The notes: generated from the sequence alone by a model not told the origin. 64,000 nucleotides of DNA from Candidatus Woesearchaeota archaeon (GCA_016926395.1 JAFGOT010000010.1:1-64000), one strand, 5' to 3'; counted from the first letter of the stretch, positions 12,352 through 64,000 are shown. Numbers and translations are program-made.

Positions 12352-15300
12352 TCTTCAACCTCCAAAGGAATACCTGAACAGAAGTCTTCACCTTCAAGTT
12401 CTCGAAGTCCTGGTTGCCATGGATTTTGGAAATATGATTCATAATTTGCAGCGGTTAAGTAAGCACCTGTTAGGCTACAAGTAACAGATCTCCATCCTGA
12501 AGGAATGCTACATTTACTCATCGAATCTAAAGCACTTCCCCAAAGATTATCTCCTAAGCCAAATGGCAAGTATTCTTCTGGACACATTATCTTTCTTGAT
12601 GTAAGTACTACTTGGTTTGCAATTGCAAAACCACTTCCATAACCATCATCGCCTACTTCTCCCCAGAAATAGTTTTGCCATATTTTTGTAAAGAAACTAT
12701 CCCAAAATCCTTCATTAGACATTGGTCCGTCATAATAAACACATTTTCCTTGATCGAAATCTATTTCACAACTAGTGATTGGAAGACCATTCTTTGCGTT
12801 TTCTTCAATACACTTATACTCCCTACAATTTAATTGTTTTAATTTTTCTTTTGCATAGACTATTCCTGGACCACACAAACATCCAGCAGCAAATTTTCTG
12901 TCTTCGAATGGATCCATTCGCTCAACAATACCGCCTTCTTGTATGTCTTGTTGTCTTTGAGCAAATGCGGATTGTTCTGCTGTTAAAGAATCGTATTTTT
13001 TAGCTTGATCAACACGCTCCAATTGCCGATTTATTGTATCTAATTGAGATTCTGTCTTCCTCAAGGATTGTCTATTTTCTCTCATAGCAGTACGTTTAAT
13101 TTTACCATCTTCAATATTTTGAATCTCAGATACATCGTTCTTAATACTTTGTATGTCTTTTGAAATACTGGATTTTTCAGCATTTAAACTAGCAACATAA
13201 GAATTCAAGTTTTCGACTGTAACTTGATTGCCACTTCCATCGACAATACCATAAGCATTCAATCCTTCTTGAAGAGTTTCTTGTTTTCCTTTTAGAGCTT
13301 CAACTTGTCGCTGTTTCGCAAAACTAAGTTCTTCCTTTTGAAGATCTACTGCTTGATCATAAATTTCTTTATCTGCTTGTAAAGAAGTCATTTTATCAGT
13401 TAATGTTTTAACTTTTGCAGGATCACCACCACAATTTTCAATTGGCTTTCCCCCACAAACACTTGCTAATTCCTTTTTTGTTGCTTCTATTTCTTCATTT
13501 ACTTTTTTTAATCCATCCTCAGAACTAGCTAAATCTTTTTCAGCACTTGCAACATCATTTTTTGCCTCATCAATAGCGGCTTTGTCATTAAGACTTTTTG
13601 TTTGTTCAACATACGAACCAACAATATTAACTGCTTGTAATACTCCTTCTGGAGAACATAAACCACAATTGTAAACCAAACAACCCAATTTTAAGAATGA
13701 ATCTATTCCTACATTTAATTTATCATTACTGGCAGTGCCCGAATCACCACCCAACATTTTTGTCAGAGAACCAATTGGATTAACTTTTGATCTTAAGCTA
13801 TTTAACTTTTCGAACAAATTTGAACATAAATTCGTCCACATAGTATCTACACCAGGAACCCAACTAAAACCAACTGCAACTCCATATACCACCGTCTCAA
13901 TAGCAGATATAGTTGAAAAAACAGTGTTAAATGTGTTTGATATAGTGCATATCGTGTCAATAATATCTAAATAGGTATGCCAGTCATCAATGCTGTCTTG
14001 CAAATCATTTATCTCTCCAACAATATCAGTTAGTTTTTCTTGAGTTGCAATATCGATTGTTCCAAGTTCTTGATTAAATGTTGGCATACGCACTACTAAC
14101 TCTTCGAGTTCTGGTTTTGTGTAACGCACAACTCCTCTTTTTTCATAAACTTTGATAGTGCAATTAATAGTAACTGAAGAATCTAATAATTGTTCTCGCC
14201 CACCTATTGGAACTACAAGTATCGGTTGTTTTGAATGTTCATTGATAAAATATGGTCTTCCTGCTAAATCTTTTGTTCCAACACAACCAGTCGTATCTAA
14301 ATCTACAATTTCTGTGTTTTGATTTTTGAAATTAAAATCTAATGGAAGGTATGCTCTTATTGGCATAAATGTCATCATTCGTTTGTCAATTTTTTGTGTT
14401 GGATTAGAAGTTATAGAAGATAATGATTCTGGTGGAACTTGTGTTTCTGCTTCACATACTTGTATTGGAATTGTTAAGTCTTCAATTTGGTTTCCAGCTA
14501 AGTCTTTGACAGTTACTGCCAAGTCTTCTTTCTCTGCATAAGAAACAAAATTACTTAATTCTAATTTACAAACAAAGATATTTCCTTGTCTTTGACAATC
14601 ATTTTGAAAGAAGTTATCTGTTGTTATTTTTTCTGGACTCGCACTTATTCTTATTATTGGAGAAACTTCATCAGTTACATTTATTGTAAGATATGCCTTT
14701 TCTCCAGTTATTGGACATAATACCGAAAAGTTAAGATCTGTTTTTGCAACAGGAGGATCTTGGTCAACAATCACTGTTGATGAAGATATTCCTTTTAACG
14801 GAGAACCAAGCGAATCTGTTGAAGGTGTTGTTAACGCCACTGTTTGTCGTGAACCCGAAGATATCGTTTTATCCACAGGTAAATAACCATAACAAGTGTA
14901 ATAGTCGCCAGTATCATTACAAGAAGCCATTTTAATATAACCAAGGGTTGATAACCCTGATGCCGAAACCGTTATTAAATAAGGTTTAATTTCAACATCT
15001 TGACTGGTTATGTGCATAAATAATTTATTAGCACCACCTTTATAGTAACATGTTCCTTCAAAACAATTTTCTTTTGCATCTCTTCCAAAATAAGTAACTT
15101 CACTCAATTTTGTTTGAATCGCAAAATGAGCAGAAATATTTTTTGTTGATACATGACCTTTGAAATCTGTTGCAGTTACTTTAATAGGAACTTCTGTTGC
15201 ACCAGGATTTATTTGTACGCCTTCAAACACGCACTCATACATTAATCCTTGTTTTGTACATCTTGCAGTTCTAGAACTGTCTTGGCTTTTTAATTCTGGA

Positions 15301-16118
15301 TCTCTTGACAGCGAAGATAAATCTCCAGTTACTAATGTTAAATTATCATCTTTGACCTTTACATAAATATCAGCACTTGGAACCATCGAAGGTTGTGATG
15401 AAATAGTTTCTAATTTTGTTTCTCCTGATAGAACAATTACTTCATCTTGTATTTCAGGGCCTTGAAAATCAACATTAATTGGTCCGAAATTCAACTGACC
15501 AAATTGTCCTAAATTATCTTGTACTATAGCTGTAAAAATGAAGTCGCCACTAACCTTTGGAGGCTTAATTAAAACGGATTTTTCATAAACACATAATCCT
15601 TTTTCACCAATCGTTTCTTTGTAAAAGACATCTTCTTCTGTTGTTACTTCAATCGATTGTATTCCTGCACAATTTTCTGAACCCATAAATGCTTCATCAT
15701 AAGCAGTTATAGTCAAATTCAACTTGTCTCCAACAGGTTCGACAAGAAGTTTTGTTATTACAGGTGCTCTTCCATCAACAATAAATGGCCAAGTAAAAAT
15801 TTGTGTTAATCCTTGTTTGAATGTTAAAACATATTCTCCTGCTTCAGTTGTTGTTTTTTCAAATGTGTGATCACATACAAAAAGACCTTCGTCATTTTCT
15901 ACGCAACTCATTGGATAATCTTGATCTCCACGAACAATACTCACTGCCGCATCAGAAACTACGTGAACTTTTGTAATATCCTCTAACCCTCGGATACCTT
16001 TTATTCCATTAGTACCAGTTATATCTACAGTTGTAACAGCGTTAACCATTGAAATCTGCATCAGAAAAATACTTAGAAGCAAAAAAAATAATAATTTTCT
16101 CTCTATTCGCACACCCAT
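12348..16118 (-). CDS. Giant exported protein: Ig-like repeats, hydrophobic helices, long coiled coil, Cys-rich C-terminus
   Basis: Signal peptide ending SMVNA/V; repeated VD..(A/G)P ... (A/V)xD..G Ig-like units; heptad region ~aa 840-1060; C-terminal CLCGPG...C...C cluster. Confidence 0.75.
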   Translation of the reverse strand: MGVRIERKLLFFLLLSIFLMQISMVNAVTTVDITGTNGIKGIRGLEDITKVHVVSDAAVSIVRGDQDYPMSCVENDEGLFVCDHTFEKTTTEAGEYVLTFKQGLTQIFTWPFIVDGRAPVITKLLVEPVGDKLNLTITAYDEAFMGSENCAGIQSIEVTTEEDVFYKETIGEKGLCVYEKSVLIKPPKVSGDFIFTAIVQDNLGQFGQLNFGPINVDFQGPEIQDEVIVLSGETKLETISSQPSMVPSADIYVKVKDDNLTLVTGDLSSLSRDPELKSQDSSRTARCTKQGLMYECVFEGVQINPGATEVPIKVTATDFKGHVSTKNISAHFAIQTKLSEVTYFGRDAKENCFEGTCYYKGGANKLFMHITSQDVEIKPYLITVSASGLSTLGYIKMASCNDTGDYYTCYGYLPVDKTISSGSRQTVALTTPSTDSLGSPLKGISSSTVIVDQDPPVAKTDLNFSVLCPITGEKAYLTINVTDEVSPIIRISASPEKITTDNFFQNDCQRQGNIFVCKLELSNFVSYAEKEDLAVTVKDLAGNQIEDLTIPIQVCEAETQVPPESLSSITSNPTQKIDKRMMTFMPIRAYLPLDFNFKNQNTEIVDLDTTGCVGTKDLAGRPYFINEHSKQPILVVPIGGREQLLDSSVTINCTIKVYEKRGVVRYTKPELEELVVRMPTFNQELGTIDIATQEKLTDIVGEINDLQDSIDDWHTYLDIIDTICTISNTFNTVFSTISAIETVVYGVAVGFSWVPGVDTMWTNLCSNLFEKLNSLRSKVNPIGSLTKMLGGDSGTASNDKLNVGIDSFLKLGCLVYNCGLCSPEGVLQAVNIVGSYVEQTKSLNDKAAIDEAKNDVASAEKDLASSEDGLKKVNEEIEATKKELASVCGGKPIENCGGDPAKVKTLTDKMTSLQADKEIYDQAVDLQKEELSFAKQRQVEALKGKQETLQEGLNAYGIVDGSGNQVTVENLNSYVASLNAEKSSISKDIQSIKNDVSEIQNIEDGKIKRTAMRENRQSLRKTESQLDTINRQLERVDQAKKYDSLTAEQSAFAQRQQDIQEGGIVERMDPFEDRKFAAGCLCGPGIVYAKEKLKQLNCREYKCIEENAKNGLPITSCEIDFDQGKCVYYDGPMSNEGFWDSFFTKIWQNYFWGEVGDDGYGSGFAIANQVVLTSRKIMCPEEYLPFGLGDNLWGSALDSMSKCSIPSGWRSVTCSLTGAYLTAANYESYFQNPWQPGLRELEGEDFCSGIPLEVEE

Positions 16119-16140
16119 AGGTTAAAAATACAAGAATAAG

Positions 16141-16151
16141 AGTATTTAAAG
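16141..16151 (-). promoter_or_regulatory. TATA-box variant CTTTAAATACT (leaderless spacing)
   Basis: 23 nt from the ATG at 16118. Confidence 0.65.
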
Positions 16152-16182
16152 ATTATGTTTATAAACAAAGAACGAAAATTAA

Positions 16183-16728
16183 CTAAAAATCTGCTAGTTC
16201 TGCAAATTTAGTGTGTTTTCGATGTTTTTCAAGCCACTTATACACAGATGCATGTGGACTTCCTGTCAATAAGGATTCTACAGCTTTTTTAGAAATTGCA
16301 ACATCATCACAAAATCCAATTATTGTGATTGTTTTTCCATAAACACTTATTGAAGTGTTTGTGAATTCCTCAATTGTTTCTCTTGCCTTCCCGCCTTTTC
16401 CTATGACTCGGCCTCTAAGTCTTAGTTGTTGGTCTTGACTTTTTACAAAATCAGAAAGATTTAACAGTTCTAAAACATAATCTTGTTTGAAAAGTCTCAT
16501 AGCAATTTCAGGGTTAAAACCTCTTCCTACAGCTTTTATAATGTCTTTTAGAACGAATAATTGGATTGAATCAGATCCTGAAATAACGATATCTCCTTCT
16601 TTTGAGTCTATATTTATCTTAGACTTTGTTTGAGATTCAAGTTCCGTTTTGATTTCGCCGTTTTTACCAATTAAAACCGCTATTCTCTCTTTTGGAATCT
16701 TTAATTCATAGGAATATTCGTCAGCCAT
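16183..16728 (-). CDS. KH-domain rRNA-processing protein (Dim2/Pno1/Krr1-like)
   Basis: Two KH GxxG loops (LIGKNG, VIGKGG); GRGF; LLTGSPHASVY; directly downstream of rio1. Confidence 0.92.
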   Translation of the reverse strand: MADEYSYELKIPKERIAVLIGKNGEIKTELESQTKSKINIDSKEGDIVISGSDSIQLFVLKDIIKAVGRGFNPEIAMRLFKQDYVLELLNLSDFVKSQDQQLRLRGRVIGKGGKARETIEEFTNTSISVYGKTITIIGFCDDVAISKKAVESLLTGSPHASVYKWLEKHRKHTKFAELADF

Positions 16729-16781
16729 TAGATACCAGAAATCAAAGCTCTTTTTTAAAGCTTCCTTTATAAATCAAGATT

Positions 16782-17501
16782 TTAGTTTTCTTCTTTATCA
16801 ATTATCTTAGAATAAACTTCTTCTTGAGATAATTTTACGCCCTGTTTTCTAAAGAATCTACAAATGTTTTCTATGTCTCTTTTTAGCAATTCTTTAGCGT
16901 TTGGAGCTTCCTTAGCTGTTGCTTGGGAAAAATCAATAAAAACAGGTTTTCCGTGTTGCATAAGAATGTTGAATTCAGATAAATCACCATGTATAAGGCC
17001 TGTTTTGAATAACTGTTTCATCATTTCAACTATTTCATCAAATGTTTCTTGAGGGTTTTCAAGATGGGAGTCTTTTAGTTGTGGCGCAGCCTCACCTTCA
17101 TCATCAATAAACTCTGTAACAACAATGTTATCTTTGAACGTCATCGGAGTTGGAACACGTATTAGTTCTCTTGCCTTTAGCAAGTTTCTATACTCTCTTT
17201 GTGTCCAAGCGAAAATTATTCTTCTTTTATCTCCTTTAAGGTTTAAGTATCGAGGGTCTTGAGAGATGTATTCGTACATCTTGTTGAAGTTACAATTTTC
17301 TAATCTGTAAATTTTTATAGCTATTTGTTCGCCTTCTTTGTTTGTAGCTACAAACACATTGGCTTCTTTTCCAAGCGCCACAGACCCTTTTAATTCTTCA
17401 AAATATCCCTGACTAGCTAAACGTTCAAGATTTCTTAACGTAAATGCATCAAAAACATTACCATATGTTTTCCATGCTTCTCTACTTCTATTTACAACCA
17501 T
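16782..17501 (-). CDS. rio1: RIO1 serine/threonine kinase
   Basis: GKEANVF, AIKIYR, WTQREYRNL, IHGDLSEFNIL, IDFSQA. Confidence 0.95.
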   Translation of the reverse strand: MVVNRSREAWKTYGNVFDAFTLRNLERLASQGYFEELKGSVALGKEANVFVATNKEGEQIAIKIYRLENCNFNKMYEYISQDPRYLNLKGDKRRIIFAWTQREYRNLLKARELIRVPTPMTFKDNIVVTEFIDDEGEAAPQLKDSHLENPQETFDEIVEMMKQLFKTGLIHGDLSEFNILMQHGKPVFIDFSQATAKEAPNAKELLKRDIENICRFFRKQGVKLSQEEVYSKIIDKEEN

Positions 17502-17663
17502 CTACTAAAGAAAGATATCTTTTCCTTTTTAAAACCACTCATCAAAAACAAGGAACAACAAGATTTGAAATGTCGTGGCAAAGCGAAGACACCAAAAAAG
17601 AAGTAACATGGCCTCTAAATAAGTAGCATATAGAAATTACCTTAAATAAATTGAGAAAAAATG

Positions 17664-17737
17664 TGGGTCGGGGGGGATTTGAACCCCCGACTTCTCCCTC
17701 TTCAGGGGAGCGCTCTGCCGGTCTGAGCTACCAACCC
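17664..17737 (-). tRNA. trnF: tRNA-Phe(GAA), intronless, CCA not encoded
   Basis: GGGTTGG/CCGACCC acceptor stem; GCTC/GAGC D-stem; CTCCC-CTGAAGA-GGGAG anticodon arm; GGGGG-TTCAAAT-CCCCC T-arm; discriminator A. TTTATAAA at 17765-17772. Confidence 0.97.
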
Positions 17738-17853
17738 AATAAAAAAAGAGTTGCAGAGCCTAGGTTTCAAGAATCAGAAAGTAGTTTATAAAGATTATTA
17801 TTATCGGGCGTATCTAAGCCCTAAAAAAAGAATTTAAAGAATTAATGGAATTT

Positions 17854-20106
17854 TTAGCTACCAATATTTATTGGTATTGCTCCTGCCACTAAGTTAAATA
17901 CGAGTATTGCTCCTCCTGCAAGCATAATATATAGTATTGTTGATTTAGTCATTCCTATTCCTAATGCGTTTTCTTTTCCTATTTGATCACCGCCAGTTTC
18001 TATTCCGTTTCCTATAACAGTTAGGATGTAAGCTAGTTCAACAACATAAAGACCCACTACAATTTGGAAATGATATGTTGGTATTCCAGTTCCAAACATA
18101 GATAATAATCCCGCTCCTCCACCTGCTGCTCCACCTGCAGATAGTTGTTTCATTCCATCACCTAGTATTCCTAAAATTTTTGTGATCATGCTTGTTATTC
18201 CAACTACAATTCCTGAAATTACAGGTGTTAAGAATTTTACTTGACCTTTCAAACTTCCTATAACATCTCCTAATAAATCTTGTAGTCGCTCGTCAACTCT
18301 ATGCATTTGTTTGATATATTCGGAAACATTAATTATCGCTTGGCTAGCTACCAGCGGTCCTTTTTTACTTGATTCGACAAGAACTTTCATCGAACTTTCT
18401 ATTAGGTCCGATGGATAATATTGCAAAGCTCCTTTTTCTTTGTCAAATATTGCTTTTTCGACACTCATCCCTAAACGAGTAATGTTAACGTGAACTAACA
18501 TGAAAAATTTTCCTGAAACAGTATCTTGCATCATCGAGGCTACTTTTCCAAATGATGTTTCGGCTGGTATTCCATCACCTATCCTGCTTCCTAATTGGAA
18601 CAACGCACTAGAAAATTCAAGTTCTAATTTTTTTGATTGGTCTCTTATTTTCACAATTTTTTGTGATTTCATTTTAAAATAAAGACCCATAAAATAACCT
18701 ATACTTAGAGGTATAAGGAGACTAAACATCATCGCTCCAAGACCAAAAGGCCCTACTAAATCTTCAGTTGCATCCCCTCCTTCAGTTCTCACTCGGTAAT
18801 TTAAGAAATAATATTTTGCAGTTCCAGGATCTATAAAATCTGCATTGACTAATTTTAAATTTCCTGAAGGCCCCGGTGCTAAAGCATAATCTGGAAGACC
18901 TACAGAATACCATATTAAAGGTATCAATCCGATTAAAAAAACAATTGCTCCTAAAACAAAACAAACAACTATCGGTTTTAGATATAATTCTTGTCCGCCA
19001 AAATTTATTGTTATGTTCTTAAGTTTTTTTAGTTCGGGGTTTTTTTCTGTTATGTCTTGATCTCCACTTCCACCCGGCCTTGTAGATAATATTTTTGATC
19101 CTAAATAATAAACCGCAATAGGTAATAGAATATTATAGAATGCGAGCAAGTGATACCATCGCATATTATCCATAAAGCTTACTACTAATGGTAATAGTAC
19201 TAATGTTAATATTGGAAGAACAACTCCAAGCATGTTAAGTGTTGTTAATGGTGCTTGCAAGTTGTGTGCAAAGTGAATCATTTTTTCATACGTACCATCA
19301 AGCATAACAGCTAATGCTTTGTCAAGACTTCCAAGTCGCCTATCATTACTTGATTCATAAAGAGAAGATTGTATTAAGTGCATACACTCTACAAACTCTT
19401 CGTTATTATGACGCCAAGCATTTAAGTAATCATCAAGAGAATCTTTCACTGAATCAAATTTTTCCGTCTCAACATTCCAAACAATTTTTCTCATGTCAAG
19501 TGCTAATGGAGGCCCTAAATGTTCTGCTGCAAAGTTTATTGCAAGCTCCAAGTTTGATGTGTGTCTCATATATGTTACTACATAAAAAACAGCTAGAACC
19601 ATTTGGTTTGATGCTTTCATCTTCCAAGAACCAGCTAAAGTCATTGGTAAACTTTGTAAAGGTATAAGCATTGCAAGCCCGCCAAGTAATGCAAACATTA
19701 CAAAGAATAAGTTTCCTTGACCGCCCAAAGCCATAGGAATAATAAAGAAAATAATCATTGCTGCAAAGATTATTGCTAAAGGAATTACAAGTGCAGCACT
19801 ATATACGCCCGTAGGAGTTGTGTTTAGATGACAAGTGTTTATAGCTTCTTGAAGTGCTTGCGCTTTTTTTTCATCTGGTCTAAAAGGAATTGTTTTTTCT
19901 GCAAAATTACAAATTTTTTCGTAAACAGTAAAATTTTTTGGCATGTATTGTTTTTTGAATTCTTCATACGCTCTTGTTTGTCCAACTTCTTCACTTGCAA
20001 ATCCGCCGTTGTTTCCAGATAACTCTTGTTCTAATCTTTCTTTAAAAAGTTGAGACAATCGTTTATCCGAGATTTGTTCTTCGTCTGGCATTTTTTTATT
20101 CTGCAA
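17854..20106 (-). CDS. Type II secretion/Tad-type membrane platform protein (T2SSF/TadBC/FlaJ superfamily)
   Basis: 750 aa with two cytoplasmic T2SSF-like halves (LAINFAAEHLGPPLA; ALFQLGSRIGDGIPAE) alternating with TM bundles; overlaps the ATPase gene. Confidence 0.8.
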   Translation of the reverse strand: MQNKKMPDEEQISDKRLSQLFKERLEQELSGNNGGFASEEVGQTRAYEEFKKQYMPKNFTVYEKICNFAEKTIPFRPDEKKAQALQEAINTCHLNTTPTGVYSAALVIPLAIIFAAMIIFFIIPMALGGQGNLFFVMFALLGGLAMLIPLQSLPMTLAGSWKMKASNQMVLAVFYVVTYMRHTSNLELAINFAAEHLGPPLALDMRKIVWNVETEKFDSVKDSLDDYLNAWRHNNEEFVECMHLIQSSLYESSNDRRLGSLDKALAVMLDGTYEKMIHFAHNLQAPLTTLNMLGVVLPILTLVLLPLVVSFMDNMRWYHLLAFYNILLPIAVYYLGSKILSTRPGGSGDQDITEKNPELKKLKNITINFGGQELYLKPIVVCFVLGAIVFLIGLIPLIWYSVGLPDYALAPGPSGNLKLVNADFIDPGTAKYYFLNYRVRTEGGDATEDLVGPFGLGAMMFSLLIPLSIGYFMGLYFKMKSQKIVKIRDQSKKLELEFSSALFQLGSRIGDGIPAETSFGKVASMMQDTVSGKFFMLVHVNITRLGMSVEKAIFDKEKGALQYYPSDLIESSMKVLVESSKKGPLVASQAIINVSEYIKQMHRVDERLQDLLGDVIGSLKGQVKFLTPVISGIVVGITSMITKILGILGDGMKQLSAGGAAGGGAGLLSMFGTGIPTYHFQIVVGLYVVELAYILTVIGNGIETGGDQIGKENALGIGMTKSTILYIMLAGGAILVFNLVAGAIPINIGS

Positions 20107-22465
20107 TTTGTTGTTGTGAATTTTGTTTTAGTTTTATTCTCTTAACTTCTTTTTCAATCCAGTCATTCCATTCAAAATATATCGCTTCGTGATCTTCTTT
20201 TCCTGATCGTTTAATTACTTTTTCAACTACTTTATGAAATGTGTCGTTTGCTAAGATTACAAATTCTGCTTCCATCAAATCAGGTAACTTTTCTTTCATT
20301 GCGATTTCGAATATTCTTTGTTTTACTTTTGCTCGAAGTTGGATATTATCCCACATCGCATCCCAGTTTCCAGTGTATTCTTTAACTTTCGATGCAATAT
20401 CTTTTAGTATTTCGCTTTCTCCGTTTAATAACTCTGGTGTTGGTTCTAAAGTGTCTGTTTTTGCGTTGTATTTCATCAAGTCTACAAAGCCACCTTCTGT
20501 TCCGGGATCTTTGTCCCAGTCTTTTCTTACTTCGGTTATTTGTAGCACTCTTCTCATTTTGTGAAGCCCATCGGCTGATTTTATTGGATTAACAATTATG
20601 ATTATATCTGTTGCTTTAAACGAAGTATTTGGCACTCCAATATCATTGACTAATCGGTCATAAATACCATAAGGACTATCACCGTGAATTGTTCCTGCTA
20701 CAACATTTGCTGCAGCTCCAACTCTCATTGCTTCATAAAGTGCTTTTGCTTCTCCACTTCTTACTTCTCCAACAATTAAAGCACTATCTCCAAGACGCAA
20801 AGTACTTCGTATACCATCAGCTGCAGTAAATTCCCCGCCTGATTTTCCAAGTGCACTCGCAACTTTTATTGGTTGAATGTTAAAACCTAATTTTCTCATC
20901 GCAGTTCCTGGAAGTTCAAGCGTGTCTTCAACTGTTATAATTCTATGTCGTCTCATTATCTCAATTAATAGCGATGATAGAAAACTACTTTTACCTGAAC
21001 TTCTCGTACCACACACAAGAAAAGTTCTTGTTCCATCTATTAAAAAAGACAATAATCCTGCCCCTAAAGGACTAAGCATTTTGTATTTTAGAAATAAAGG
21101 TAATGTCCATGGTTTGTCTCGATGTCGTCTAAATGAGAATGCTAAACCTGAAGGATCAAGTGGTTTTGTTATCGTACTTGTCCTAATACTTGCACCAGGT
21201 AATTCAAGTTCTGTATCAAGAATTGGATTCGCTTCATCAAGTGGTCGACCAGAAATCATTCTTAATTTTGATGCCCAACTTTCTGTATCACCGATGGTTG
21301 GAAAAATATTTGTTATACAATCATCATAATCTGCGTGTACAATAAATATAGGCACTTCTCCAGCTGGAGAGTTAACAGATATGTCCTGCATTTTTTCATC
21401 TTGAAGAAGAACTTCTATCAGTCCAAATCCCACTGTATATCTAACAAGTATTGCTGCTAGTTCTTCTACTTGTTTATCATCTAGCGTTATATTTCTATAG
21501 TTTGCTAATTCAACAAGAAGATCTTTTCCTACATTGTGAAAAACTTCTCTCATTCTTGCAGGGTCGGTGAACTCATCGCTATCCGGTTGATGCTCACTCA
21601 TTATTTTTCTTGCAGTATCAAGTAAGTCATACAACTCTTCAGAAAGTTTAAACTCTGGTGGCATCACATGATATAAATATTGAACCGTATCTGGTCTCTC
21701 AAAAATTACAACTTCTGTATCTCCAATTGTGTAGTTGTCAAGTTCAACTCCATTTTTTGGATATGTTGCCATAAGTTTTGTAAACATAAAATCTGGTTTT
21801 ATTATTGGAAAGAATATTTTTCTGTATGCATCTCTGTTTCCAATTTCGTGTCCTTCAATATATGGTCTTGCTACTAAGAAAAACTTGGTTCCTTCTAAAA
21901 GTTCAAGTATGTGGTCGATTAATTTTACGTAATGAAGTATTCCTTCTGCTAAGTTTAAATCTAGTTCTTTGTCTGCTGCAATTTGTTCCCTTCGTTTTAT
22001 TCTTTTCAGTCTTACAAAACAAGAGATAGGATCTTTTTTTAGTTCTGTAAATAAAACACTGTGAAGTTCGTTGTATTTTGATGCCAGTGTTGATGCTGCA
22101 ATTGATTGTGCTAGAGAAGAATAACTAAACAATTCTTTATTTCTAATTAATTTTACATATAATTTTGCAAGTTCTTGAAGAAGGGAAACTTGCGTATAAT
22201 CATACTCATAATTGTGTTTTTGTAAGAATACTAATTTTGTGGCGTTTGGATTTTCTATTAGCATATTTATTGCTTCATCCATAGTTACTTCGTCATCTTC
22301 AATAGATGGAATTCTACCTCTATTTGCGTAATTAACTAGTATAGAAACGTCATCGCCTTCTCGTTCAACTTCATATTGAAGTTTCTTCTTTTTTTCGTCA
22401 AACGCCATTAAACCACTCAAACCCTCTTTTTGTGACTTTCTAGTAATACTGATATAATTTAGCAT
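20096..22465 (-). CDS. Type II/IV secretion (CpaF/VirB11/FlaI-family) ATPase with long N-terminal extension
   Basis: Walker A GTRSSGKS; Asp box TVEDTLEL; Walker B IVGEVRSGEA; His box GTIHGDS; LRHRD-type FSFRRH. Start could be ATG at 22408. Confidence 0.92.
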   Translation of the reverse strand: MLNYISITRKSQKEGLSGLMAFDEKKKKLQYEVEREGDDVSILVNYANRGRIPSIEDDEVTMDEAINMLIENPNATKLVFLQKHNYEYDYTQVSLLQELAKLYVKLIRNKELFSYSSLAQSIAASTLASKYNELHSVLFTELKKDPISCFVRLKRIKRREQIAADKELDLNLAEGILHYVKLIDHILELLEGTKFFLVARPYIEGHEIGNRDAYRKIFFPIIKPDFMFTKLMATYPKNGVELDNYTIGDTEVVIFERPDTVQYLYHVMPPEFKLSEELYDLLDTARKIMSEHQPDSDEFTDPARMREVFHNVGKDLLVELANYRNITLDDKQVEELAAILVRYTVGFGLIEVLLQDEKMQDISVNSPAGEVPIFIVHADYDDCITNIFPTIGDTESWASKLRMISGRPLDEANPILDTELELPGASIRTSTITKPLDPSGLAFSFRRHRDKPWTLPLFLKYKMLSPLGAGLLSFLIDGTRTFLVCGTRSSGKSSFLSSLLIEIMRRHRIITVEDTLELPGTAMRKLGFNIQPIKVASALGKSGGEFTAADGIRSTLRLGDSALIVGEVRSGEAKALYEAMRVGAAANVVAGTIHGDSPYGIYDRLVNDIGVPNTSFKATDIIIIVNPIKSADGLHKMRRVLQITEVRKDWDKDPGTEGGFVDLMKYNAKTDTLEPTPELLNGESEILKDIASKVKEYTGNWDAMWDNIQLRAKVKQRIFEIAMKEKLPDLMEAEFVILANDTFHKVVEKVIKRSGKEDHEAIYFEWNDWIEKEVKRIKLKQNSQQQIAE

Positions 22466-27494: not shown

Positions 27495-27563
27495 AGAAAT
27501 TTTTATTTTAATTACTTATTACAATCGTGGCGTTAGCCAGATAACTTATTGGTGAATAAAAAA

Positions 27564-29270
27564 ATGTATCGAACACACACATGTGGAGAACTACGTGCTA
27601 AGCACGAGAATAGTGAAGTAACCCTTGCGGGTTGGGTTCATAAAGTTAGAACTCATGGCGCATTAACCTTCGTTGATCTTAGAGATCGATATGGTATAAC
27701 ACAAATTACAATTAACTCCGACGATGATTTAGATACTGATTTCACCAAAGAAAGTGTTATTCAAATTAAAGGAGTAGTTGTAAAAAAACCCGAAGCGAAT
27801 AAAGCATTAGAGACTGGCGAAATAGAAGTTATTGCTAAAGAAGTTAATGTTCTTAGTAAATCCGAACCTCTTCCAATTGATAACAACGCAACTGAAGATA
27901 ACAGACTAAAATACAGGTATCTTGATATTCGTAACAATGGTGTTATTGATAATTTAGCTTTTAGAAGTGAAGCTGTTCTTACAGTAAGAAACTTTTTTAG
28001 AAGTGAAAATTTTTTAGAAATTGAAACACCTCTTCTTGTTAAATCAACACCAGAAGGAGCAAGAGATTACGTTGTTCCCTCAAGAATTAATAAAGGAATG
28101 TTTTACGCGCTTCCACAATCTCCTCAGCTTTACAAGCAAATTTTAATGATTGCAGGAGCAGACAAATATTTTCAGTTAGCAAAATGTCTTAGAGATGAAG
28201 ACCTTCGAGCAGATAGACAACCAGAACACACTCAAATTGACTTTGAAATGAGTTTTGTTCATCAAGAAGATATTCAAGCTTTTGTTGAAAGATTAATGAA
28301 AGATTTATTCAAAAGAACATTAAACAAAGAACTTGATTCATTCCCTGTATTTTCTTATGATAATGCAATGGCTAGATTTGGTAGCGATAAACCTGATATT
28401 CGTTTTGGTCTAGAATTAACTGATGTTACAAAAATTGGCAAAGAAACTGACTTTGCAGTTTTCAAAGAAGCAGAAGTAGTCAACGCGATTTTTGTTGAAA
28501 AAGATTTTTCTAGAAAAGAAATCGACAAATATACTGATCTTGTTAAAACATACAGAGCTAAGGGTTTAGCTTATTCAAAAATTGTTGATAACAAATTCGA
28601 TGGTGGTGTTAGTAAATTTTTAGACGCATCAGTTCAAGAAAAAATTATCTCTGCAATTAACGCAACTGGAAAAACTGGAACGGTATTTTTTGTAGCAGAT
28701 AGGCTTCGTATCAGTCAAACAGCTCTTGGTCACCTTCGAAACAAATTAGCACTTGATTTAGAGTTATACAATAAAGATGATTTCAAATTCTGCTGGGTTA
28801 ATGATTTCCCTCTATTCTCATATAATGAAGAAGAAGATAAATGGGAACCTGAACACCACATGTTTTCTATGCCTAAACCTGAATTTGTAAATGATTTCGA
28901 ATCTCGTCCGGGAGAAGTAAAAGGAGACTTATGGGATCTTGTTCTAAATGGTTGGGAAATGGCTTCTGGTTCTATTAGAGTAAGTAATCCTAAAGTTCAA
29001 GAACGAATAATGAATTTTATTGGTCTTAACAAAGAAGAAGCAAATGAAAAATTTGGTTTCCTTCTTGATGCATATAAGTACGGCGGTCCAATCCACGGCG
29101 GCATGGGTATTGGTGTTGATAGACTTGTTGCTCTTATGCTTCAATTCACTGATATCAGAGCGGTTATGGCATTTCCAAAAAACAAGAACGCGCAGTGCCC
29201 AATGGATGACTCTCCTAACAAAATCAGCGAGATTCAACTTGACGAACTTAGCATCAGCATAAACAAATAA
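27564..29270 (+). CDS. aspS: Aspartyl-tRNA synthetase, bacterial type (GAD insertion)
   Basis: YRTHTCGELR, DLRDRYG, YALPQSPQLYKQ, RDEDLRADRQPE, RFGSDKPDIRF, GAD domain, HGGMGIGVDR. Confidence 0.96.
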   Translation: MYRTHTCGELRAKHENSEVTLAGWVHKVRTHGALTFVDLRDRYGITQITINSDDDLDTDFTKESVIQIKGVVVKKPEANKALETGEIEVIAKEVNVLSKSEPLPIDNNATEDNRLKYRYLDIRNNGVIDNLAFRSEAVLTVRNFFRSENFLEIETPLLVKSTPEGARDYVVPSRINKGMFYALPQSPQLYKQILMIAGADKYFQLAKCLRDEDLRADRQPEHTQIDFEMSFVHQEDIQAFVERLMKDLFKRTLNKELDSFPVFSYDNAMARFGSDKPDIRFGLELTDVTKIGKETDFAVFKEAEVVNAIFVEKDFSRKEIDKYTDLVKTYRAKGLAYSKIVDNKFDGGVSKFLDASVQEKIISAINATGKTGTVFFVADRLRISQTALGHLRNKLALDLELYNKDDFKFCWVNDFPLFSYNEEEDKWEPEHHMFSMPKPEFVNDFESRPGEVKGDLWDLVLNGWEMASGSIRVSNPKVQERIMNFIGLNKEEANEKFGFLLDAYKYGGPIHGGMGIGVDRLVALMLQFTDIRAVMAFPKNKNAQCPMDDSPNKISEIQLDELSISINK

Positions 29271-60756: not shown

Positions 60757-61356
60757 CTATTTTTTATTTAAAAGCTTATTTATAAAGGCCGAGTCGTACC
60801 CTCGCTTGATTAAAAGGTCTTCCAACTGGTTCTCAGTGTATCCTCGTTTTCTTAAATTATTAATATAAGGACTTAAGCTGATTATTTGTTTTTTTTCATC
60901 ACGCAAAATAGCTAGTTTGTGAGCTATAACCAAAACAACAACAATCAAAATCAAAATAATTCCAAAGATACTAGCAAAGAGAATCCAATTATTGCTAGGA
61001 ATATTTCTTTCCTCATTTCGGGGCTCATCAGATATAACGACAATTTCTGTTTGAAAATCAAGATTCGTGTTGTTTTTTTCTTCTAAAGAAATGTTGTTTT
61101 TATTTGAAGCAGATTCGTTAACAACTAAAACAGCAGTATCAACTGCATTATATTCATCTCCAAAATCGCCCTCACAATAAAGATAATAGTCATCGCCCAC
61201 CAAATCATAGTAATTTTCTGGATCATCTAAACAAAATGATTGGTTCCATTCCATCAGCTCCCCATTTAATGTTTGAACTTCAAAGGAATTAACAGAGTGA
61301 AAAGACAAAATTAACATAATAAAATAGACTAATCCGAAAAAATATTTTGTTTTCAT
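60757..61356 (-). CDS. Small single-pass surface protein with cytoplasmic helical module
   Basis: Signal peptide; CLDD...C motif; TM; tail YINNLRKRGYTENQLEDLLIKRGY. Confidence 0.7.
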   Translation of the reverse strand: MKTKYFFGLVYFIMLILSFHSVNSFEVQTLNGELMEWNQSFCLDDPENYYDLVGDDYYLYCEGDFGDEYNAVDTAVLVVNESASNKNNISLEEKNNTNLDFQTEIVVISDEPRNEERNIPSNNWILFASIFGIILILIVVVLVIAHKLAILRDEKKQIISLSPYINNLRKRGYTENQLEDLLIKRGYDSAFINKLLNKK

Positions 61357-61357
61357 T

Positions 61358-64000
61358 TTATACTAAAAAGGTTTCATACCCATATTTTGAACTTATTTGA
61401 TCTACTCCTTGAGCAACTAGCCCTTCTTGGTTTAAATCAATTTGTTGATATACTAAAATCGCTGGTTTGTAGTATTTTCCCATCACATTGTATTTACTAA
61501 CGACATAAGAAGTATCTCCATCAACAAGCATTATTTTTGAGTTAGCATTTACACTTGTAGAAGATCTAACTGCATCATTAAATGCAGATATTAACTCTTG
61601 ATCTTGTTCTATCAAAGCTCGCGTATCTTCTAGGTTGGTAATGTCATATCTATAAGTATCACGAAGTTTTGCTAACACATCATAACCTGAATATTTACAA
61701 AAACGATCAGTTTCAGTTCTTTTGCTTTCGGCAATATTGAATTGGTTGGTCCCATACTCGAAATGCCAATCTTCATTTCCATACCTTACAAATCCCAAAG
61801 AACACATTATATCTTCCATCAAAAGGGGATTTACTCCTTTTTTAGTAACCGCATCTTTCATTTCAATATCAATAGCGCCTGAAACCATGTGAGGACATAA
61901 TTTTTGACCTTTAGGATTCGGATCACATGCTAAACTAGTATCGTAACCATTGGCAACAAATAACTTTTGTTGAATATCATAAGTCCTATATGCTTGAGTT
62001 ATAGATATTTCTAAATTTAATGGTTCTAAATAAAGTTGAGAAAGTTCATGTAATTTTAAGACCAATTCCTTATTTCCCGCACATATTTTTCCAACACGCG
62101 TATTTTTTTCATCACAAGTTACTCGAGGTATATTTGCTATTCTATACAAATTTTCTCCTGTCGTTGGATGTTTTATTCCGGGATAGACTTCAAGTTCAAT
62201 ATCAGTATCATCAAACTTTGCAATTTCTGGTTTTGCAGCTTTTCCGTATAATTCTTCTAGCGTAATTTTTGGCTGATAAAAATTTTTACATACTAAACCT
62301 GAAATATATGATGATTCAGGAATTACTTTTGAAACTAAGCTTCCTGCCGTCATATCAGGCATTGGAAGGCCCTCCCAGTCAAAAGATTTGTTGTTTTCGT
62401 AAGCATCGAAGGAAGTTATTTTATAATAATAAGACATTCCTGGTTCGAATGGAAAATCTCCCCCATAAAATCTTAGTCTTGCATAATAAGTTATTTTAGA
62501 GTTTGTCGTTGTCTTGTAAAGAACACCAATCGTGTCTGCTTTTGATGGGTCTTCTATTTCTATTGCATCTATTGAATAAAATTCATAATCAAAATAATTA
62601 TTTGTTGAGTCTTTGTTTGTAGATATTTCTAGAGCAAATTTGTCTACAAAATGATCATCAATCGGAACATCCCAAGAGAGCATTGGAACGATGTCCTCAA
62701 GACAAGACGAGTAAGATGTTTTTCCATACGTTAGTTCTGGCGCTTTAGTATCATTTAGATAAACTGAGAAATCAATCGTCTCATCAGAAAAGGTTGTATG
62801 TGCTTGTAACCTAAAGTTGTGTTTGTTATCTTTACAAGATAATTGACCATAACCTTTTTTGTAAGGAACCCATTTCATATCATTTTTTCCTTTAACAACA
62901 GCTAAAGAATCAAAGTCAACACCAACTTCCATAGATTTATCTTTAACAGGTCTTTCTATATCAAAATAAGTTTTATTTTTTTGATTATCATAAGTAATTT
63001 CTAAGTATTCTACATCGGAGAAGTCAAAAACAGCATCCGCAAGGTTCGCTATTGCTTTTAATGGTGCAAAGGCGATTTCTGATAAAACACTTATTGTTCC
63101 ATCTTCTTTTTCTTCAGTTGTTTCGACAATATAAAATTTTACTGGATTAAAAGGAAGAGACAGTAAATATTTTTGAGTATCTGAGTCAAGACCATAACTA
63201 TCTCTATCACCTACATAAACCACGCCTGATTTTTCAAGGCGTATTGCAAAATCTTTCGTTGGTTTTTTCAATTGCGTGTTCAACTTTAATTCACAAGTGC
63301 AGCTTTCCTGACCATTTTCATAACAATCATATATTTGATCTATAAAATCATATCCAACAGCATTTTCTTCATCATCTATTGTTATTTTAATTTGATGTTT
63401 AGAATTAAAATTACTTATTTCATTTTTTATACATACATCTAATTTATCAGTACATTTTTCAGTCACATAATTTACAAAAGAATTTATTTCATCTAATTCT
63501 TCAAAGTTAATCTTGTCTTCTGTTATGAATTTTGGATTTATTGTAAAATAACTATTAGATTTTACTCTAGACCCACTAACTCCCGCCATTAAAGATCCTG
63601 AGCACTGTTCTTGCAAAGCTTTTGCAACCAAATTAGGATATAAAAATATTTCATCATGTTTTGCTTTTTTCTCAAACGCGCCGCCCAATCTTGAAGCTCC
63701 CGTTTGTACATCTTCGTAAGTTATATCACTCCATTGCAAAGTAGAAGGTGGACGACCTAATCTTGCACTAGCGGCTTCTTTAATATATTTAGTGGTTGTT
63801 CCTCCTGAATTGTATGCCATTGCAACAAAGTAAAAGTTAGGATTTTGAGGATCAACTATTCTCGTGTCTGTCATCAAAGAATTAAGCAAAGCAGCACCAG
63901 TCATTATTCCTTGTCTTGTATCTCCTGCTTTTAATTCCTCATACGAACAATATTCATTTGGTTGTCGATTTATTGACTCACAAGTTATTGGTGCAATTTG
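61358..64000 (-). CDS. Large protein, 5'-truncated by window: probable SLT/lytic-transglycosylase tail, FN3-like domain, M15 D-Ala-D-Ala metallopeptidase
   Basis: Frame open from 64000 (QIAPITCESINRQPNEYCSYEELKAGDTRQGIMTGAALL...). IMTGAALL and AMAYNSG resemble SLT motifs. LSWDVP...YYYKITSFD is FN3-like. QAYRTYDIQ, CPHMVSGAIDI and EDWHF are M15 motifs. Confidence 0.8.
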   Translation of the reverse strand, partial: QIAPITCESINRQPNEYCSYEELKAGDTRQGIMTGAALLNSLMTDTRIVDPQNPNFYFVAMAYNSGGTTTKYIKEAASARLGRPPSTLQWSDITYEDVQTGASRLGGAFEKKAKHDEIFLYPNLVAKALQEQCSGSLMAGVSGSRVKSNSYFTINPKFITEDKINFEELDEINSFVNYVTEKCTDKLDVCIKNEISNFNSKHQIKITIDDEENAVGYDFIDQIYDCYENGQESCTCELKLNTQLKKPTKDFAIRLEKSGVVYVGDRDSYGLDSDTQKYLLSLPFNPVKFYIVETTEEKEDGTISVLSEIAFAPLKAIANLADAVFDFSDVEYLEITYDNQKNKTYFDIERPVKDKSMEVGVDFDSLAVVKGKNDMKWVPYKKGYGQLSCKDNKHNFRLQAHTTFSDETIDFSVYLNDTKAPELTYGKTSYSSCLEDIVPMLSWDVPIDDHFVDKFALEISTNKDSTNNYFDYEFYSIDAIEIEDPSKADTIGVLYKTTTNSKITYYARLRFYGGDFPFEPGMSYYYKITSFDAYENNKSFDWEGLPMPDMTAGSLVSKVIPESSYISGLVCKNFYQPKITLEELYGKAAKPEIAKFDDTDIELEVYPGIKHPTTGENLYRIANIPRVTCDEKNTRVGKICAGNKELVLKLHELSQLYLEPLNLEISITQAYRTYDIQQKLFVANGYDTSLACDPNPKGQKLCPHMVSGAIDIEMKDAVTKKGVNPLLMEDIMCSLGFVRYGNEDWHFEYGTNQFNIAESKRTETDRFCKYSGYDVLAKLRDTYRYDITNLEDTRALIEQDQELISAFNDAVRSSTSVNANSKIMLVDGDTSYVVSKYNVMGKYYKPAILVYQQIDLNQEGLVAQGVDQISSKYGYETFLV

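What the first reader, a model, noticed from the sequence alone, without database searches (positions are those of the whole stretch)
61358..64000. Archaeal protein carrying two candidate peptidoglycan-attacking domains (SLT-like glycosidase plus intact M15 peptidase)
Seen: the C-terminal third has every hallmark residue of VanX/VanY-type M15 peptidases in order: Arg (QAYRTYDIQ, ~61985), Zn ligands His and Asp (CPHMVSGAIDI; codons 61889-91 and 61868-70), and Glu plus third ligand His (EDWHF; 61772-74 and 61763-65). The N-terminal end reads GIMTGAALLNSL...FVAMAYNSG (63803-63817)...EIFLYPNLV, matching the NI..GA.YL / AYNxG / ET..YV series of soluble lytic transglycosylases; the catalytic Glu would lie beyond 64000. 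An FN3-like and other spacer domains lie between, and paired Cys residues suggest an extracellular location. Established: archaea lack bacterial peptidoglycan, and these families act on D-Ala-containing stems and glycan strands. Inference: a reduced DPANN cell may display a glycan-plus-peptide cutting 'drill' for bacterial walls, pointing to a bacterial host or prey or to scavenging. Isolated peptidoglycan-hydrolase homologues in archaea are known; the fused architecture is the part that may be new.
Basis: partly seen in the sequence, partly recalled or inferred. Interest (0 to 1): 0.88.

Follow-up and report, generated by a model that had tools for sequence, protein, structure and literature searches.

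The report
Archaeal pilin-operon multi-domain murein hydrolase
A tiny-genome (DPANN-type) archaeon encodes a 1369-residue surface protein with a glycan-cutting domain, an intact zinc peptidase and a disabled third domain, all of types that act on bacterial cell wall. The gene closes a conserved operon of pilin-like genes, which fits, but does not prove, the published idea that such archaea attack or attach to bacteria.

Summary
In detail: every motif is at the stated coordinates. The ORF runs past the window and is complete in the contig (61358-65467, minus strand, 1369 aa).

Domains, N to C:
- A pilin-type (class III-like) basic leader plus hydrophobic helix.
- An NlpC/P60 domain above the Pfam cut-off, with the nucleophile Cys replaced by Gly270.
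- An SLT domain above the cut-off, with its Glu (E458, just beyond the window) conserved among the eight closest homologues.
- An unassigned 410-aa middle region.
- An M15 (LAS-fold) peptidase with Arg, His, Asp, Glu and His intact. The model has pLDDT 81; the best structural match is VanX at Z 10.7.

The contig is archaeal and not chimeric: independent assemblies share the same layout. That layout is about 8-13 co-directional genes with pilin-like N-termini, then the hydrolase, a small membrane protein, RPA, YdjM and an ABC transporter.

Family members swap catalytic heads (Amidase_2, glucosaminidase, muramidase, M23, CHAP, YkuD, GDSL), which argues that bacterial murein is the substrate.

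Large SLT proteins of Woese-/Pacearchaeota and archaeal peptidoglycan hydrolases are already published. The pilin-operon linkage, the swappable-head locus and the dead NlpC/P60 module were not in the papers I read, so this is a new variant of a known kind.

First-stage notes from an overlapping window of this same genome describe the same operon.

The parts
61358..64000 (-). In-window part (residues 490-1369 plus stop) of the 1369-aa hydrolase ORF (P0002). The whole ORF is contig C15:61358-65467, and contig numbering equals window numbering.

Parts beyond the window end, in contig coordinates:
- 65375-65467: basic leader MKYKKA plus a hydrophobic helix of about 20 residues (residues 1-31), a class III / prepilin-type signal candidate.
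- 64688-65374: conserved N-terminal module of unknown fold (residues 32-260), with invariant Cys95, Cys110, Cys203 and Cys208.
- 64361-64678: NlpC/P60-like domain (residues 264-369). The nucleophile position is Gly270 (codon GGT, 64658-64660); His337 and His349 are kept.
   Evidence: ORF. Homologue P0003 at 78% identity over the full length. Leader; A24 peptidase in the genome. N-module. NlpC/P60: Pfam 33.5 bits against cut-off 23, LytE alignment, column states, codon.
63776..64000 (-). In-window part of the SLT (GH23 lytic transglycosylase) domain. The full domain is residues 440-564, contig 63776-64150. AYNSG is at 63803-63817 and Gln490 at 63998-64000. Met489 (64001-64003) and the catalytic Glu458 (64094-64096) lie just beyond the window end.
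62318..63547 (-). Middle region of about 410 residues (641-1050) with no assigned family. It contains conserved Cys and only weak Ig/FN3-like leads.
61688..62080 (-). M15 / LAS-fold zinc peptidase core (residues about 1130-1260): Arg1161 (61985-61987), His1193 (61889-61891), Asp1200 (61868-61870), Glu1232 (61772-61774), His1235 (61763-61765).
61361..61687 (-). C-terminal extension (residues 1261-1369): a long helix plus a small beta-sheet domain, modelled with pLDDT 65-90. It is absent from the stand-alone M15 homologues and has no assigned fold.
60757..61356 (-). Downstream 199-aa protein with an N-terminal signal-like segment and a C-terminal membrane helix. Its start lies 1 nt after the hydrolase stop. 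A protein of 181-252 aa holds this position in most related loci.
63990..64000 (-). Placeholder at the window edge for the upstream operon, which lies wholly beyond the window at contig 65471-75723. It has thirteen co-directional genes (86-458 aa), tightly spaced or overlapping. Twelve pass my [KR][GAS]-plus-hydrophobic-helix criterion; the 159-aa gene at 66085-66564 has KRG with a later helix. This is the pilin-like array that the hydrolase closes.
   Evidence: same layout in 12 further loci and in L004-L006

Best explanation
The gene encodes an exported, N-terminally anchored murein hydrolase that may be processed by the prepilin peptidase. It is the last gene of a conserved operon of pilin-like proteins in one family of Nanoarchaeota (Woesearchaeota-type) archaea.

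Proposed mechanism:
1. The class III-like leader directs the protein to the cell surface. There it either stays anchored by its hydrophobic helix or is built into or onto a type-IV-pilus-like fibre made from the upstream gene products. This step is inferred.
2. On contact with a bacterial cell, the Cys-less NlpC/P60 module binds stem peptide without cutting it (inferred).
3. The SLT domain cleaves MurNAc-GlcNAc bonds using Glu458. Residues are shown; activity is inferred.
4. The M15 zinc peptidase removes or cleaves D-Ala-containing ends of stem peptides. Fold and residues are shown. The specificity is inferred from its closer match to VanX/VanY/LdcB than to L-Ala-D-Glu endolysins.

The result would be local opening or remodelling of a bacterial wall for attachment, access to cell contents, or killing. 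Across species the same locus keeps the N-terminal module and exchanges the catalytic heads.
For: - Complete ORF and domain calls.
- M15 fold and catalytic residues.
- SLT above its cut-off, with E458, MQ and AYNxG invariant in the nine-sequence alignment A6. In addition, 26 of the 30 nearest named Atlas clusters are SLT.
- Cys to Gly at position 270 is also present in P0003 and P0005, which come from other samples, so it is not a base-call error.
- Of 33 large relatives, 25 hit NLPC_P60 and 14 hit SLT. Others carry NAGPA, Glucosaminidase, Muramidase, Amidase_2, CHAP, M23, YkuD, GDSL or Lysozyme_like domains. This repertoire makes sense only for bacterial murein.
- No Mur ligase or PBP in the own genome.
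- Leader: the family consensus is KKG followed by a hydrophobic stretch. In total 13 of 14 consecutive genes carry the motif, against 69 of 1031 genome-wide.
- The genome has an A24 prepilin peptidase, three T2SSE ATPases and T2SSF platform proteins.
- Conserved locus in 15 other assemblies.
- In one Woesearchaeota MAG the same slot holds a 358-aa protein made of leader, N-module and M15 only.
- The N-module is present in 12 of 12 sampled genomes of the same family and in only 4 of 288 other genomes sampled from the phylum.
- The M15 fusion is present in 6 of 13 other species of the genus.
Against: - No enzymatic, expression or localisation data exist.
- The target's own M15 Pfam scores are below the gathering cut-offs (15-19 bits against 25-27).
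- The SLT fold was not modelled.
- None of the upstream proteins matches any curated pilin family in Pfam or NCBIfam. 'Pilin-like' therefore rests on the N-terminal motif alone. The same motif also fits a plain signal anchor, or a bindosome-type surface assembly rather than a pilus.
- No pilus ATPase or platform gene lies in the operon itself; the contig ends 1.3 kb upstream.
- If the M15 domain is a carboxypeptidase and the NlpC/P60 module is dead, only the SLT domain can breach a sacculus.
- A bacterial partner has not been identified.
Confidence: 0.6

Rival explanations
1. It is a membrane-anchored scavenging exoenzyme. The protein sits on the archaeal surface by its N-terminal helix, unrelated to any pilus, and digests free peptidoglycan debris or dead-cell walls to supply amino sugars and amino acids to an auxotrophic cell.
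For: - Reduced 1.0-Mb genome.
- The M15 domain is closest to carboxy- and dipeptidases that release terminal D-Ala.
- No curated pilin family matches the neighbouring genes.
- An ABC transporter is conserved nearby.
- Peptidoglycan degradation in Woesearchaeota has been read as carbon recycling (PMC9723730).
Against: - The strict conservation of a 10-13-gene array of leader-bearing proteins ending in this gene is not explained by a simple exoenzyme.
- SLT products (anhydromuropeptides) need dedicated uptake and recycling enzymes, which I did not look for.
- The fast exchange of catalytic heads between species of one genus looks more like target-driven diversification.
Confidence: 0.2
2. It is an antibacterial weapon or defence rather than a host-interaction device. 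The hydrolase would kill competing bacteria, like the haloarchaeal peptidoglycan hydrolases shown to kill Halalkalibacterium.
For: - Archaeal peptidoglycan hydrolases kill bacteria and are prominent in Nanoarchaeota (PMC12352652).
- The family has a modular multi-hydrolase repertoire.
- Heads vary among close species.
Against: - Published weaponised hydrolases are patchy and often plasmid-borne (PMC12352652). This locus is chromosomal, syntenic and present in 12 of 12 sampled genomes of the family.
- The protein keeps a membrane or fibre anchor rather than a cleavable Sec or Tat signal.
Confidence: 0.12
3. The substrate is not bacterial murein. It would be an archaeal polymer (the pseudomurein of a methanogen host, or the archaeon's own unknown wall glycan), cut to let the fibre pass or to attach to an archaeal host.
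For: - Cultivated DPANN have archaeal hosts (general knowledge).
- Bacterial pilus and secretion systems use SLT enzymes to pierce the cell's own wall.
Against: - No Mur-ligase-type or PBP genes in the genome (82.5% complete).
- Pseudomurein has beta-1,3 NAG-NAT links and only L-amino acids. From general knowledge, this fits neither SLT chemistry nor D-Ala-directed M15 enzymes.
- The alternative heads in the family (Amidase_2, muramidase, glucosaminidase, M23, YkuD, CHAP) are murein-specific.
Confidence: 0.05
4. It is an artefact or relic: a chimeric contig with bacterial DNA, or a decaying horizontally acquired gene.
For: - The domains are of bacterial or phage type; PHROG gives weak hits to a minor tail protein and an endolysin.
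- One catalytic residue (Cys270) is lost.
Against: - GC is flat at 0.29-0.36 across the window.
- Archaeal genes flank both sides in this and at least 15 other assemblies from different samples.
- The frame is an unbroken 1369 codons.
- M15 and SLT catalytic residues are conserved among relatives.
Confidence: 0.03

Closest known systems
[quoted passage not shown] 2021, PMC8204110; 'large lytic murein transglycosylase' of Vigneron et al. 2022, PMC9723730)
   Same: Same lineage type, judged from the record titles of relatives. It shares the large size, the extracellular prediction and the SLT domain. The published reading is the same: binding or degrading bacterial walls.
   Different: Those papers report only the SLT domain. 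In the texts I searched, neither mentions NlpC/P60, M15, amidase or pili. I could not compare sequences with fam00969 directly.
Peptidoglycan hydrolases of Gram-positive conjugative type IV secretion systems (PrgK of pCF10, TraG of pIP501, TcpG, Tn916 Orf14-type NlpC/P60); recalled from general knowledge
   Same: They have an N-terminal membrane anchor and several wall-cutting domains in one protein (SLT plus CHAP or NlpC/P60), and are encoded inside an operon for a surface transfer apparatus. The NlpC/P60 profile of this family hits Tn916-like cell wall hydrolases in the PDB (9ubf, 4hpe).
   Different: Those enzymes open the producer's own wall. This organism appears to have no murein. No VirB4 or VirD4-type genes are seen in the operon. 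Here the NlpC/P60 nucleophile is missing and an M15 domain is added.
VanX / VanXY / VanY / LdcB (MEROPS M15, LAS fold) D-Ala-directed di- and carboxypeptidases
   Same: It has the same fold (VanX Z 10.7; VanXYg, LdcB and VanY-B Z 9.2). The Arg, H-x6-D and E-x-x-H constellation aligns.
   Different: Identity is only 16-23%. The domain is fused to a 1100-residue N-terminal part, carries an extra C-terminal domain, and scores below the Pfam gathering cut-offs. Its substrate specificity is unknown.
Virion-associated peptidoglycan hydrolases of phage tails, and archaeal modular peptidoglycan hydrolases (Strock et al. 2025, PMC12352652)
   Same: A wall-cutting enzyme carried on or next to a filamentous structure to breach a foreign bacterial wall locally. 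PHROG gives weak hits to a minor tail protein (E 3.3e-5) and an endolysin (E 0.0017). Peptidoglycan hydrolases in archaea are an established phenomenon.
   Different: There are no phage genes around it. The locus is chromosomal and vertically conserved. The published archaeal enzymes have Sec or Tat signals and classical wall-binding domains, not a pilin-type leader.

Membership tests
Peptidase M15 (VanX/VanY, LAS metallopeptidases) | Zinc ligands His-x6-Asp plus a distal His | tested here: met
   His1193, Asp1200 and His1235. H and D are invariant and the distal H nearly invariant in 22 relatives.
Peptidase M15 (VanX/VanY, LAS metallopeptidases) | Catalytic Glu three residues before the distal His (E-x-x-H), and the substrate-binding Arg of the YR motif | tested here: met
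   Glu1232 and Arg1161. They align with the corresponding motifs of 4mur. R is invariant and E nearly invariant.
Peptidase M15 (VanX/VanY, LAS metallopeptidases) | LAS fold | tested here: met
   Model pLDDT 81.3. All Foldseek top hits are M15 or LAS enzymes. VIA gives VanX Z 10.7, rmsd 2.7 A, 132 residues aligned.
Peptidase M15 (VanX/VanY, LAS metallopeptidases) | Score above the Pfam gathering cut-off (PF01427 or PF02557) | tested here: inconclusive
   The target scores 15-19 bits against cut-offs of 25-27. All 8 subfamily members match VanY at E <= 0.1, best 7.8e-6.
Peptidase M15 (VanX/VanY, LAS metallopeptidases) | Zinc-dependent cleavage of D-Ala-containing peptides | not testable with these tools
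   Needs an enzyme assay.
SLT / GH23 lytic transglycosylase (PF01464) | Score above the Pfam gathering cut-off | tested here: met
   23.8 bits against 21.3; 29 bits in the genome search; 14 of 33 relatives hit, best E 1.5e-23.
SLT / GH23 lytic transglycosylase (PF01464) | Catalytic Glu at the end of the first helix, plus the MQ and AYNxG motifs | tested here: met
   E458, M489-Q490, and Y552, N553 and G555 are invariant in alignment A6. The residue after Glu is Val or Thr, not the usual Ser.
SLT / GH23 lytic transglycosylase (PF01464) | Lysozyme-like fold | not tested
The only other evidence is a language-model lead (26 of 30 neighbouring clusters are SLT). Sequence and profile searches of the PDB returned no lytic transglycosylase chain.
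NlpC/P60 cysteine peptidase (PF00877) | Score above the Pfam gathering cut-off | tested here: met
   33.5 bits against 23. The family profile hits LytE, Tn916-like hydrolases and MepS.
NlpC/P60 cysteine peptidase (PF00877) | Catalytic Cys nucleophile | tested here: not met
   Gly270 (codon GGT) stands where LytE has Cys. The column reads C in most of the 33 relatives, S in nine, G in three and A in one. The domain is therefore a homologue but not an active member.
NlpC/P60 cysteine peptidase (PF00877) | Catalytic His and the third polar residue (His) | tested here: met
   His337 and His349 are kept.
Archaeal type IV pilin-like proteins (class III signal peptide) | Short basic N-terminus, [KR]-[GA] cleavage site, then about 20 hydrophobic residues | tested here: met
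   The target reads KKA|FNPWPIFG...; relatives read KKG|.... In total 13 of 14 consecutive genes carry the motif, against 6.7% genome-wide by the same crude rule.
Archaeal type IV pilin-like proteins (class III signal peptide) | Match to a curated pilin or class III signal family model | tested here: inconclusive
   No Pfam or NCBIfam model matched the operon proteins or the leader. Such short, divergent regions often escape HMMs.
Archaeal type IV pilin-like proteins (class III signal peptide) | Processing machinery present: A24 prepilin peptidase, assembly ATPase, platform protein | tested here: met
   Peptidase_A24 on C9, three T2SSE ATPases and four T2SSF matches on C19. None lies in this operon.
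Archaeal type IV pilin-like proteins (class III signal peptide) | Cleavage by the prepilin peptidase and incorporation into a filament | not testable with these tools
   Needs biochemistry or imaging.
DPANN fam00969 large SLT-domain proteins (PMC8204110) | Large Woese-/Pacearchaeota protein with an SLT domain | tested here: met
   1369 aa with an SLT domain. Relatives are titled Woesearchaeota, Nanoarchaeota or Nanobdellota.
DPANN fam00969 large SLT-domain proteins (PMC8204110) | Sequence membership in that protein cluster | not testable with these tools

The most novel reading that the evidence does not exclude
The conserved array of about 8-13 pilin-like genes (13 in this genome) builds a type-IV-pilus-like fibre, and its terminal subunit is this hydrolase. 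The fibre would be an archaeal, filament-borne, cross-domain wall-breaching device with species-specific interchangeable catalytic heads (M15, amidase, muramidase, M23 and others). It would mark one family of Nanoarchaeota as episymbionts or predators of bacteria rather than of archaea.
Probability: 0.3. Interest if true: 0.85.

Novelty: new variant of a known kind. Interest (0 to 1): 0.6.

Why it matters
Whether some DPANN archaea live on bacteria rather than on archaea is an open question. It currently rests on the mere presence of SLT-domain genes. This locus turns the idea into specific experiments.

It offers:
- a defined, syntenic operon found in every sampled genome of one family;
- a protein with two apparently active murein-directed domains and one binding-type pseudo-enzyme;
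- a pilin-type leader that predicts where the protein should sit;
- natural head-swap variants that predict different wall chemotypes as targets.

If the fibre linkage holds, it would be a new use of the archaeal type IV pilus machinery. It would also be a functional analogue of phage tail lysins and of conjugation hydrolases.

Tried and rejected
- Single-sequence AlphaFold of the C-terminal 319 residues gave an unusable model (pLDDT 37.7). It was repeated with a 22-sequence alignment.
- phmmer of the M15 part against the PDB gave only chance hits to xylose isomerase and a CBM. phmmer of the SLT part gave nothing. The 9-sequence full-length profile found only NlpC/P60 chains.
It was redone with 9 sequences.
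- No archaeal SSU rRNA was found in the assembly, so the taxon comes from marker proteins and from the record titles of relatives. Several relatives are titled 'uncultured Methanosarcinales' by their depositor. I treat that as a labelling default, not as evidence.
- Pfam and NCBIfam scans of the upstream operon proteins gave no significant family. An earlier by-eye note of a degenerate Amidase_3 in the 292-aa gene found no HMM support; the only match was WxLIP_PGBD at E 0.05.
- Chimera, base-call-error and own-wall explanations were considered and rejected, as set out under the rival explanations.
- Complex prediction was not used. Helix-helix packing of pilin N-termini would not discriminate between the readings.
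Those parts are now described in the text of the in-window parts.
Full report
**What is there.**
The window is contig C15:1-64000 of a 1.02-Mb, 40-contig, 82.5%-complete genome. In the contig the frame continues to an ATG at 65467, giving a complete 1369-aa protein, P0002. Every codon position in the finding is exact: Arg1161, His1193, Asp1200, Glu1232, His1235 and the AYNSG motif.

**Domains.**
- Pfam places an NlpC/P60 domain at residues 264-369 (33.5 bits, cut-off 23) and an SLT domain at 440-564 (23.8 bits, cut-off 21.3). M15 and VanY matches at 1135-1242 are sub-threshold.
It is invariant, together with MQ489-490 and the AYNxG residues, in a 9-sequence family alignment. In the wider 33-member set not every aligned sequence shows Glu at that column.
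- The six-frame genome search gives SLT 29 bits. In addition, 26 of the 30 nearest named Atlas clusters for residues 400-640 are SLT.
- The SLT fold itself was not modelled.

**The M15 domain.**
- A small subfamily of roughly 360-aa proteins shares 35-50% identity with the core. One of them is titled Candidatus Woesearchaeota by NCBI.
- QAYR, CPHM-x2-GA-x-D and E-x-WH are invariant or nearly so.
- The subfamily profile hits the VanXY-type D,D-peptidase 4mur (E 0.003) with these motifs aligned, and Ply500 more weakly. All eight members match Pfam VanY.
- AlphaFold with a 22-sequence alignment gave pLDDT 81.3 and pTM 0.80.
- The top Foldseek hits are all LAS/M15 enzymes. The VIA second look gives VanX Z 10.7 (rmsd 2.7 A, 132 residues), VanXYg, LdcB and VanY-B Z 9.2, and the M15C endolysins Ply500 and LysB4 about Z 8.
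- The E-x-x-H arrangement and the better fit to VanX/VanY/LdcB suggest a carboxy- or dipeptidase-type activity on D-Ala ends rather than a cross-link endopeptidase. This is inference, and the E-x-x-H versus D-x-x-H distinction comes from my own knowledge.

**The third domain is disabled.**
- Aligned to LytE, the nucleophile motif FDCSGF reads FDGAGF. The codon is GGT.
- The same Gly is present in P0003 (78% identical, another sample) and in P0005, so it is not a sequencing error.
- Across 33 large relatives the column is Cys in most, Ser in nine, Gly in three and Ala in one.
- Both His residues are kept in the target. The simplest reading is a stem-peptide-binding pseudo-enzyme.

**Organism and integrity of the contig.**
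- Topoisomerase VI-B and an RPA-type protein are on the same contig, and GC is flat.
- Four close homologue loci from different SRA samples show the same order: small leader-bearing genes, the giant hydrolase, a small membrane protein (missing in one locus), RPA, YdjM and an ABC-2 transporter.
- Twelve more distant loci keep this order. They come from MAGs titled Nanoarchaeota, Woesearchaeota, Nanobdellota or Nanoarchaeia, plus one titled Euryarchaeota and several with a TPA 'Methanosarcinales' label.
- A chimera is therefore excluded.
- No Mur ligase or PBP transpeptidase was found in the genome, so the enzyme is not an autolysin for a murein wall of its own.

**The operon.**
- All thirteen genes upstream (contig 65471-75723, beyond the window) lie on the same strand, with overlaps or gaps of a few bases near the hydrolase.
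- Each begins with a short basic segment, a [KR]-[GA]-type site and about 20 hydrophobic residues. The hydrolase itself reads KKA|FNPW..., and the family consensus is KKG followed by a hydrophobic stretch.
- By one crude rule, 13 of 14 consecutive genes score, against 69 of 1031 genes genome-wide.
- The genome has an A24 prepilin peptidase, three T2SSE ATPases (one in the window at 20096-22465) and T2SSF platform proteins.
- No curated pilin model matches these proteins, and the operon contains no ATPase. 'Pilin-like' therefore remains a motif-based inference.
- Class III signals also serve non-pilus surface assemblies, and large class III proteins have been proposed as pilus-tip adhesins (PMC4858521).

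**The family.**
- An exhaustive HMMER search of 1.84 billion representatives with residues 1-1200 found only 102 proteins at E <= 0.001 and 25 at E <= 1e-30. Most of these are 1000-1850 aa.
- Among 33 members, 25 hit NLPC_P60 and 14 hit SLT. Individual members carry NAGPA, Glucosaminidase, GDSL/SGNH, Metallophos, M15/VanY, Muramidase, Amidase_2, CHAP, YkuD, M23, C39_2 or Lysozyme_like domains (examples).
- In one Woesearchaeota MAG the same genomic slot holds a 358-aa protein made of the leader, part of the N-module and M15 only.
- In a sample of 300 genomes of the phylum, the N-terminal 640 residues are found in 12 of 12 genomes of the same family and in 4 of 288 others at E <= 1e-10.
- The M15 domain is found in 6 of 13 other species of the genus, always inside a 1231-1808-aa frame (one with an internal TAA), and in 0 of 4 genomes of the sister genus.
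- The locus is therefore stable while its catalytic heads turn over. That pattern fits adaptation to different bacterial walls.

**Comparison with the literature.**
- Castelle et al. [quoted passage not shown] They propose attachment to bacterial walls.
- Vigneron et al. 2022 (PMC9723730) report large lytic murein transglycosylases in five Woesearchaeota MAGs, cite an earlier analogue in genome AR20, and propose predation.
- Strock et al. 2025 (PMC12352652) show that about 5% of archaeal genomes, prominently Nanoarchaeota, encode modular peptidoglycan hydrolases. They show that two haloarchaeal ones kill a bacterium.
- None of the texts I searched mentions pili, NlpC/P60, M15 or amidase in connection with the DPANN proteins.
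- The core claim, an archaeon with murein-attacking domains, is therefore known. The pilin-operon context, the swappable-head locus, the dead NlpC/P60 module and the M15 fusion are additions.

**Verdict.**
- Best explanation (confidence 0.6): a surface- or fibre-anchored multi-domain murein hydrolase used on bacterial walls.
- My rough confidence in the parts: that the protein is directed at peptidoglycan, about 0.85; that it is extracellular, about 0.85; that it sits on a pilus-like fibre, about 0.45; that the target is a living bacterial partner, about 0.6.
- First-stage notes from an overlapping window of the same genome describe the same operon, tri-domain protein and Cys-to-Gly change. 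I reached and tested these points independently.

Noticed in passing
G000 contig C6:14693-15040 (locus L046, ORF 1291-2868 minus): A second SLT-domain protein in the genome (525 aa, 41 bits, ES and MQ motifs present). It has no N-terminal signal or hydrophobic segment, so an apparently cytoplasmic lytic transglycosylase homologue sits in an organism without murein genes.
   Followed up: partly
window 8598-22465 (minus strand): A run of large genes without Pfam families (805, 1256 and 750 aa) that ends at a 789-aa T2SSE-type ATPase (20096-22465). The 805-aa protein also has a basic leader plus hydrophobic helix. This may be the secretion or pilus machinery that serves the pilin-like operon about 40 kb away.
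   Followed up: partly
window 27549-29270 (+): The aspartyl-tRNA synthetase carries a GAD insertion domain (PF02938, E 5e-16). From my own knowledge this is the bacterial-type architecture, so it is a candidate bacterial-origin housekeeping gene in this archaeon.
   Followed up: no
contig 68830-69495 (L002 8831-9496, minus), beyond the window end: The 221-aa pilin-like protein has a thrombospondin-type-3-like calcium-binding motif (DTDNDGVTD; Pfam TSP3_bac E 0.0046, below cut-off). The motif is kept in the orthologues of L006 and L005.
   Followed up: partly
window 60757-61356 (minus): A 199-aa protein with a signal-like N-terminus and a C-terminal membrane helix starts 1 nt after the hydrolase stop. 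A protein of similar size (181-252 aa) follows the hydrolase in most related loci. It could be an anchor, a chaperone or an inhibitor.
   Followed up: partly
contig 66561-67439 (L002 6562-7440, minus), beyond the window end: An earlier scan note proposed a degenerate Amidase_3 fold in this 292-aa pilin-like protein. My Pfam scan found no amidase match, only WxLIP_PGBD (a peptidoglycan-binding domain) at E 0.05, which is not significant.
   Followed up: partly
L005 7836-13241 (P0005) and L004 3725-8164 (P0004): In these homologues extra modules sit between NlpC/P60 and SLT: in P0005 an SGNH/GDSL-like esterase, possibly a peptidoglycan de-O-acetylase (SGNH E 0.0044). P0004 ends in a strong Amidase_2 (E 1.4e-25) instead of M15 and keeps the NlpC/P60 Cys.
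   Followed up: partly
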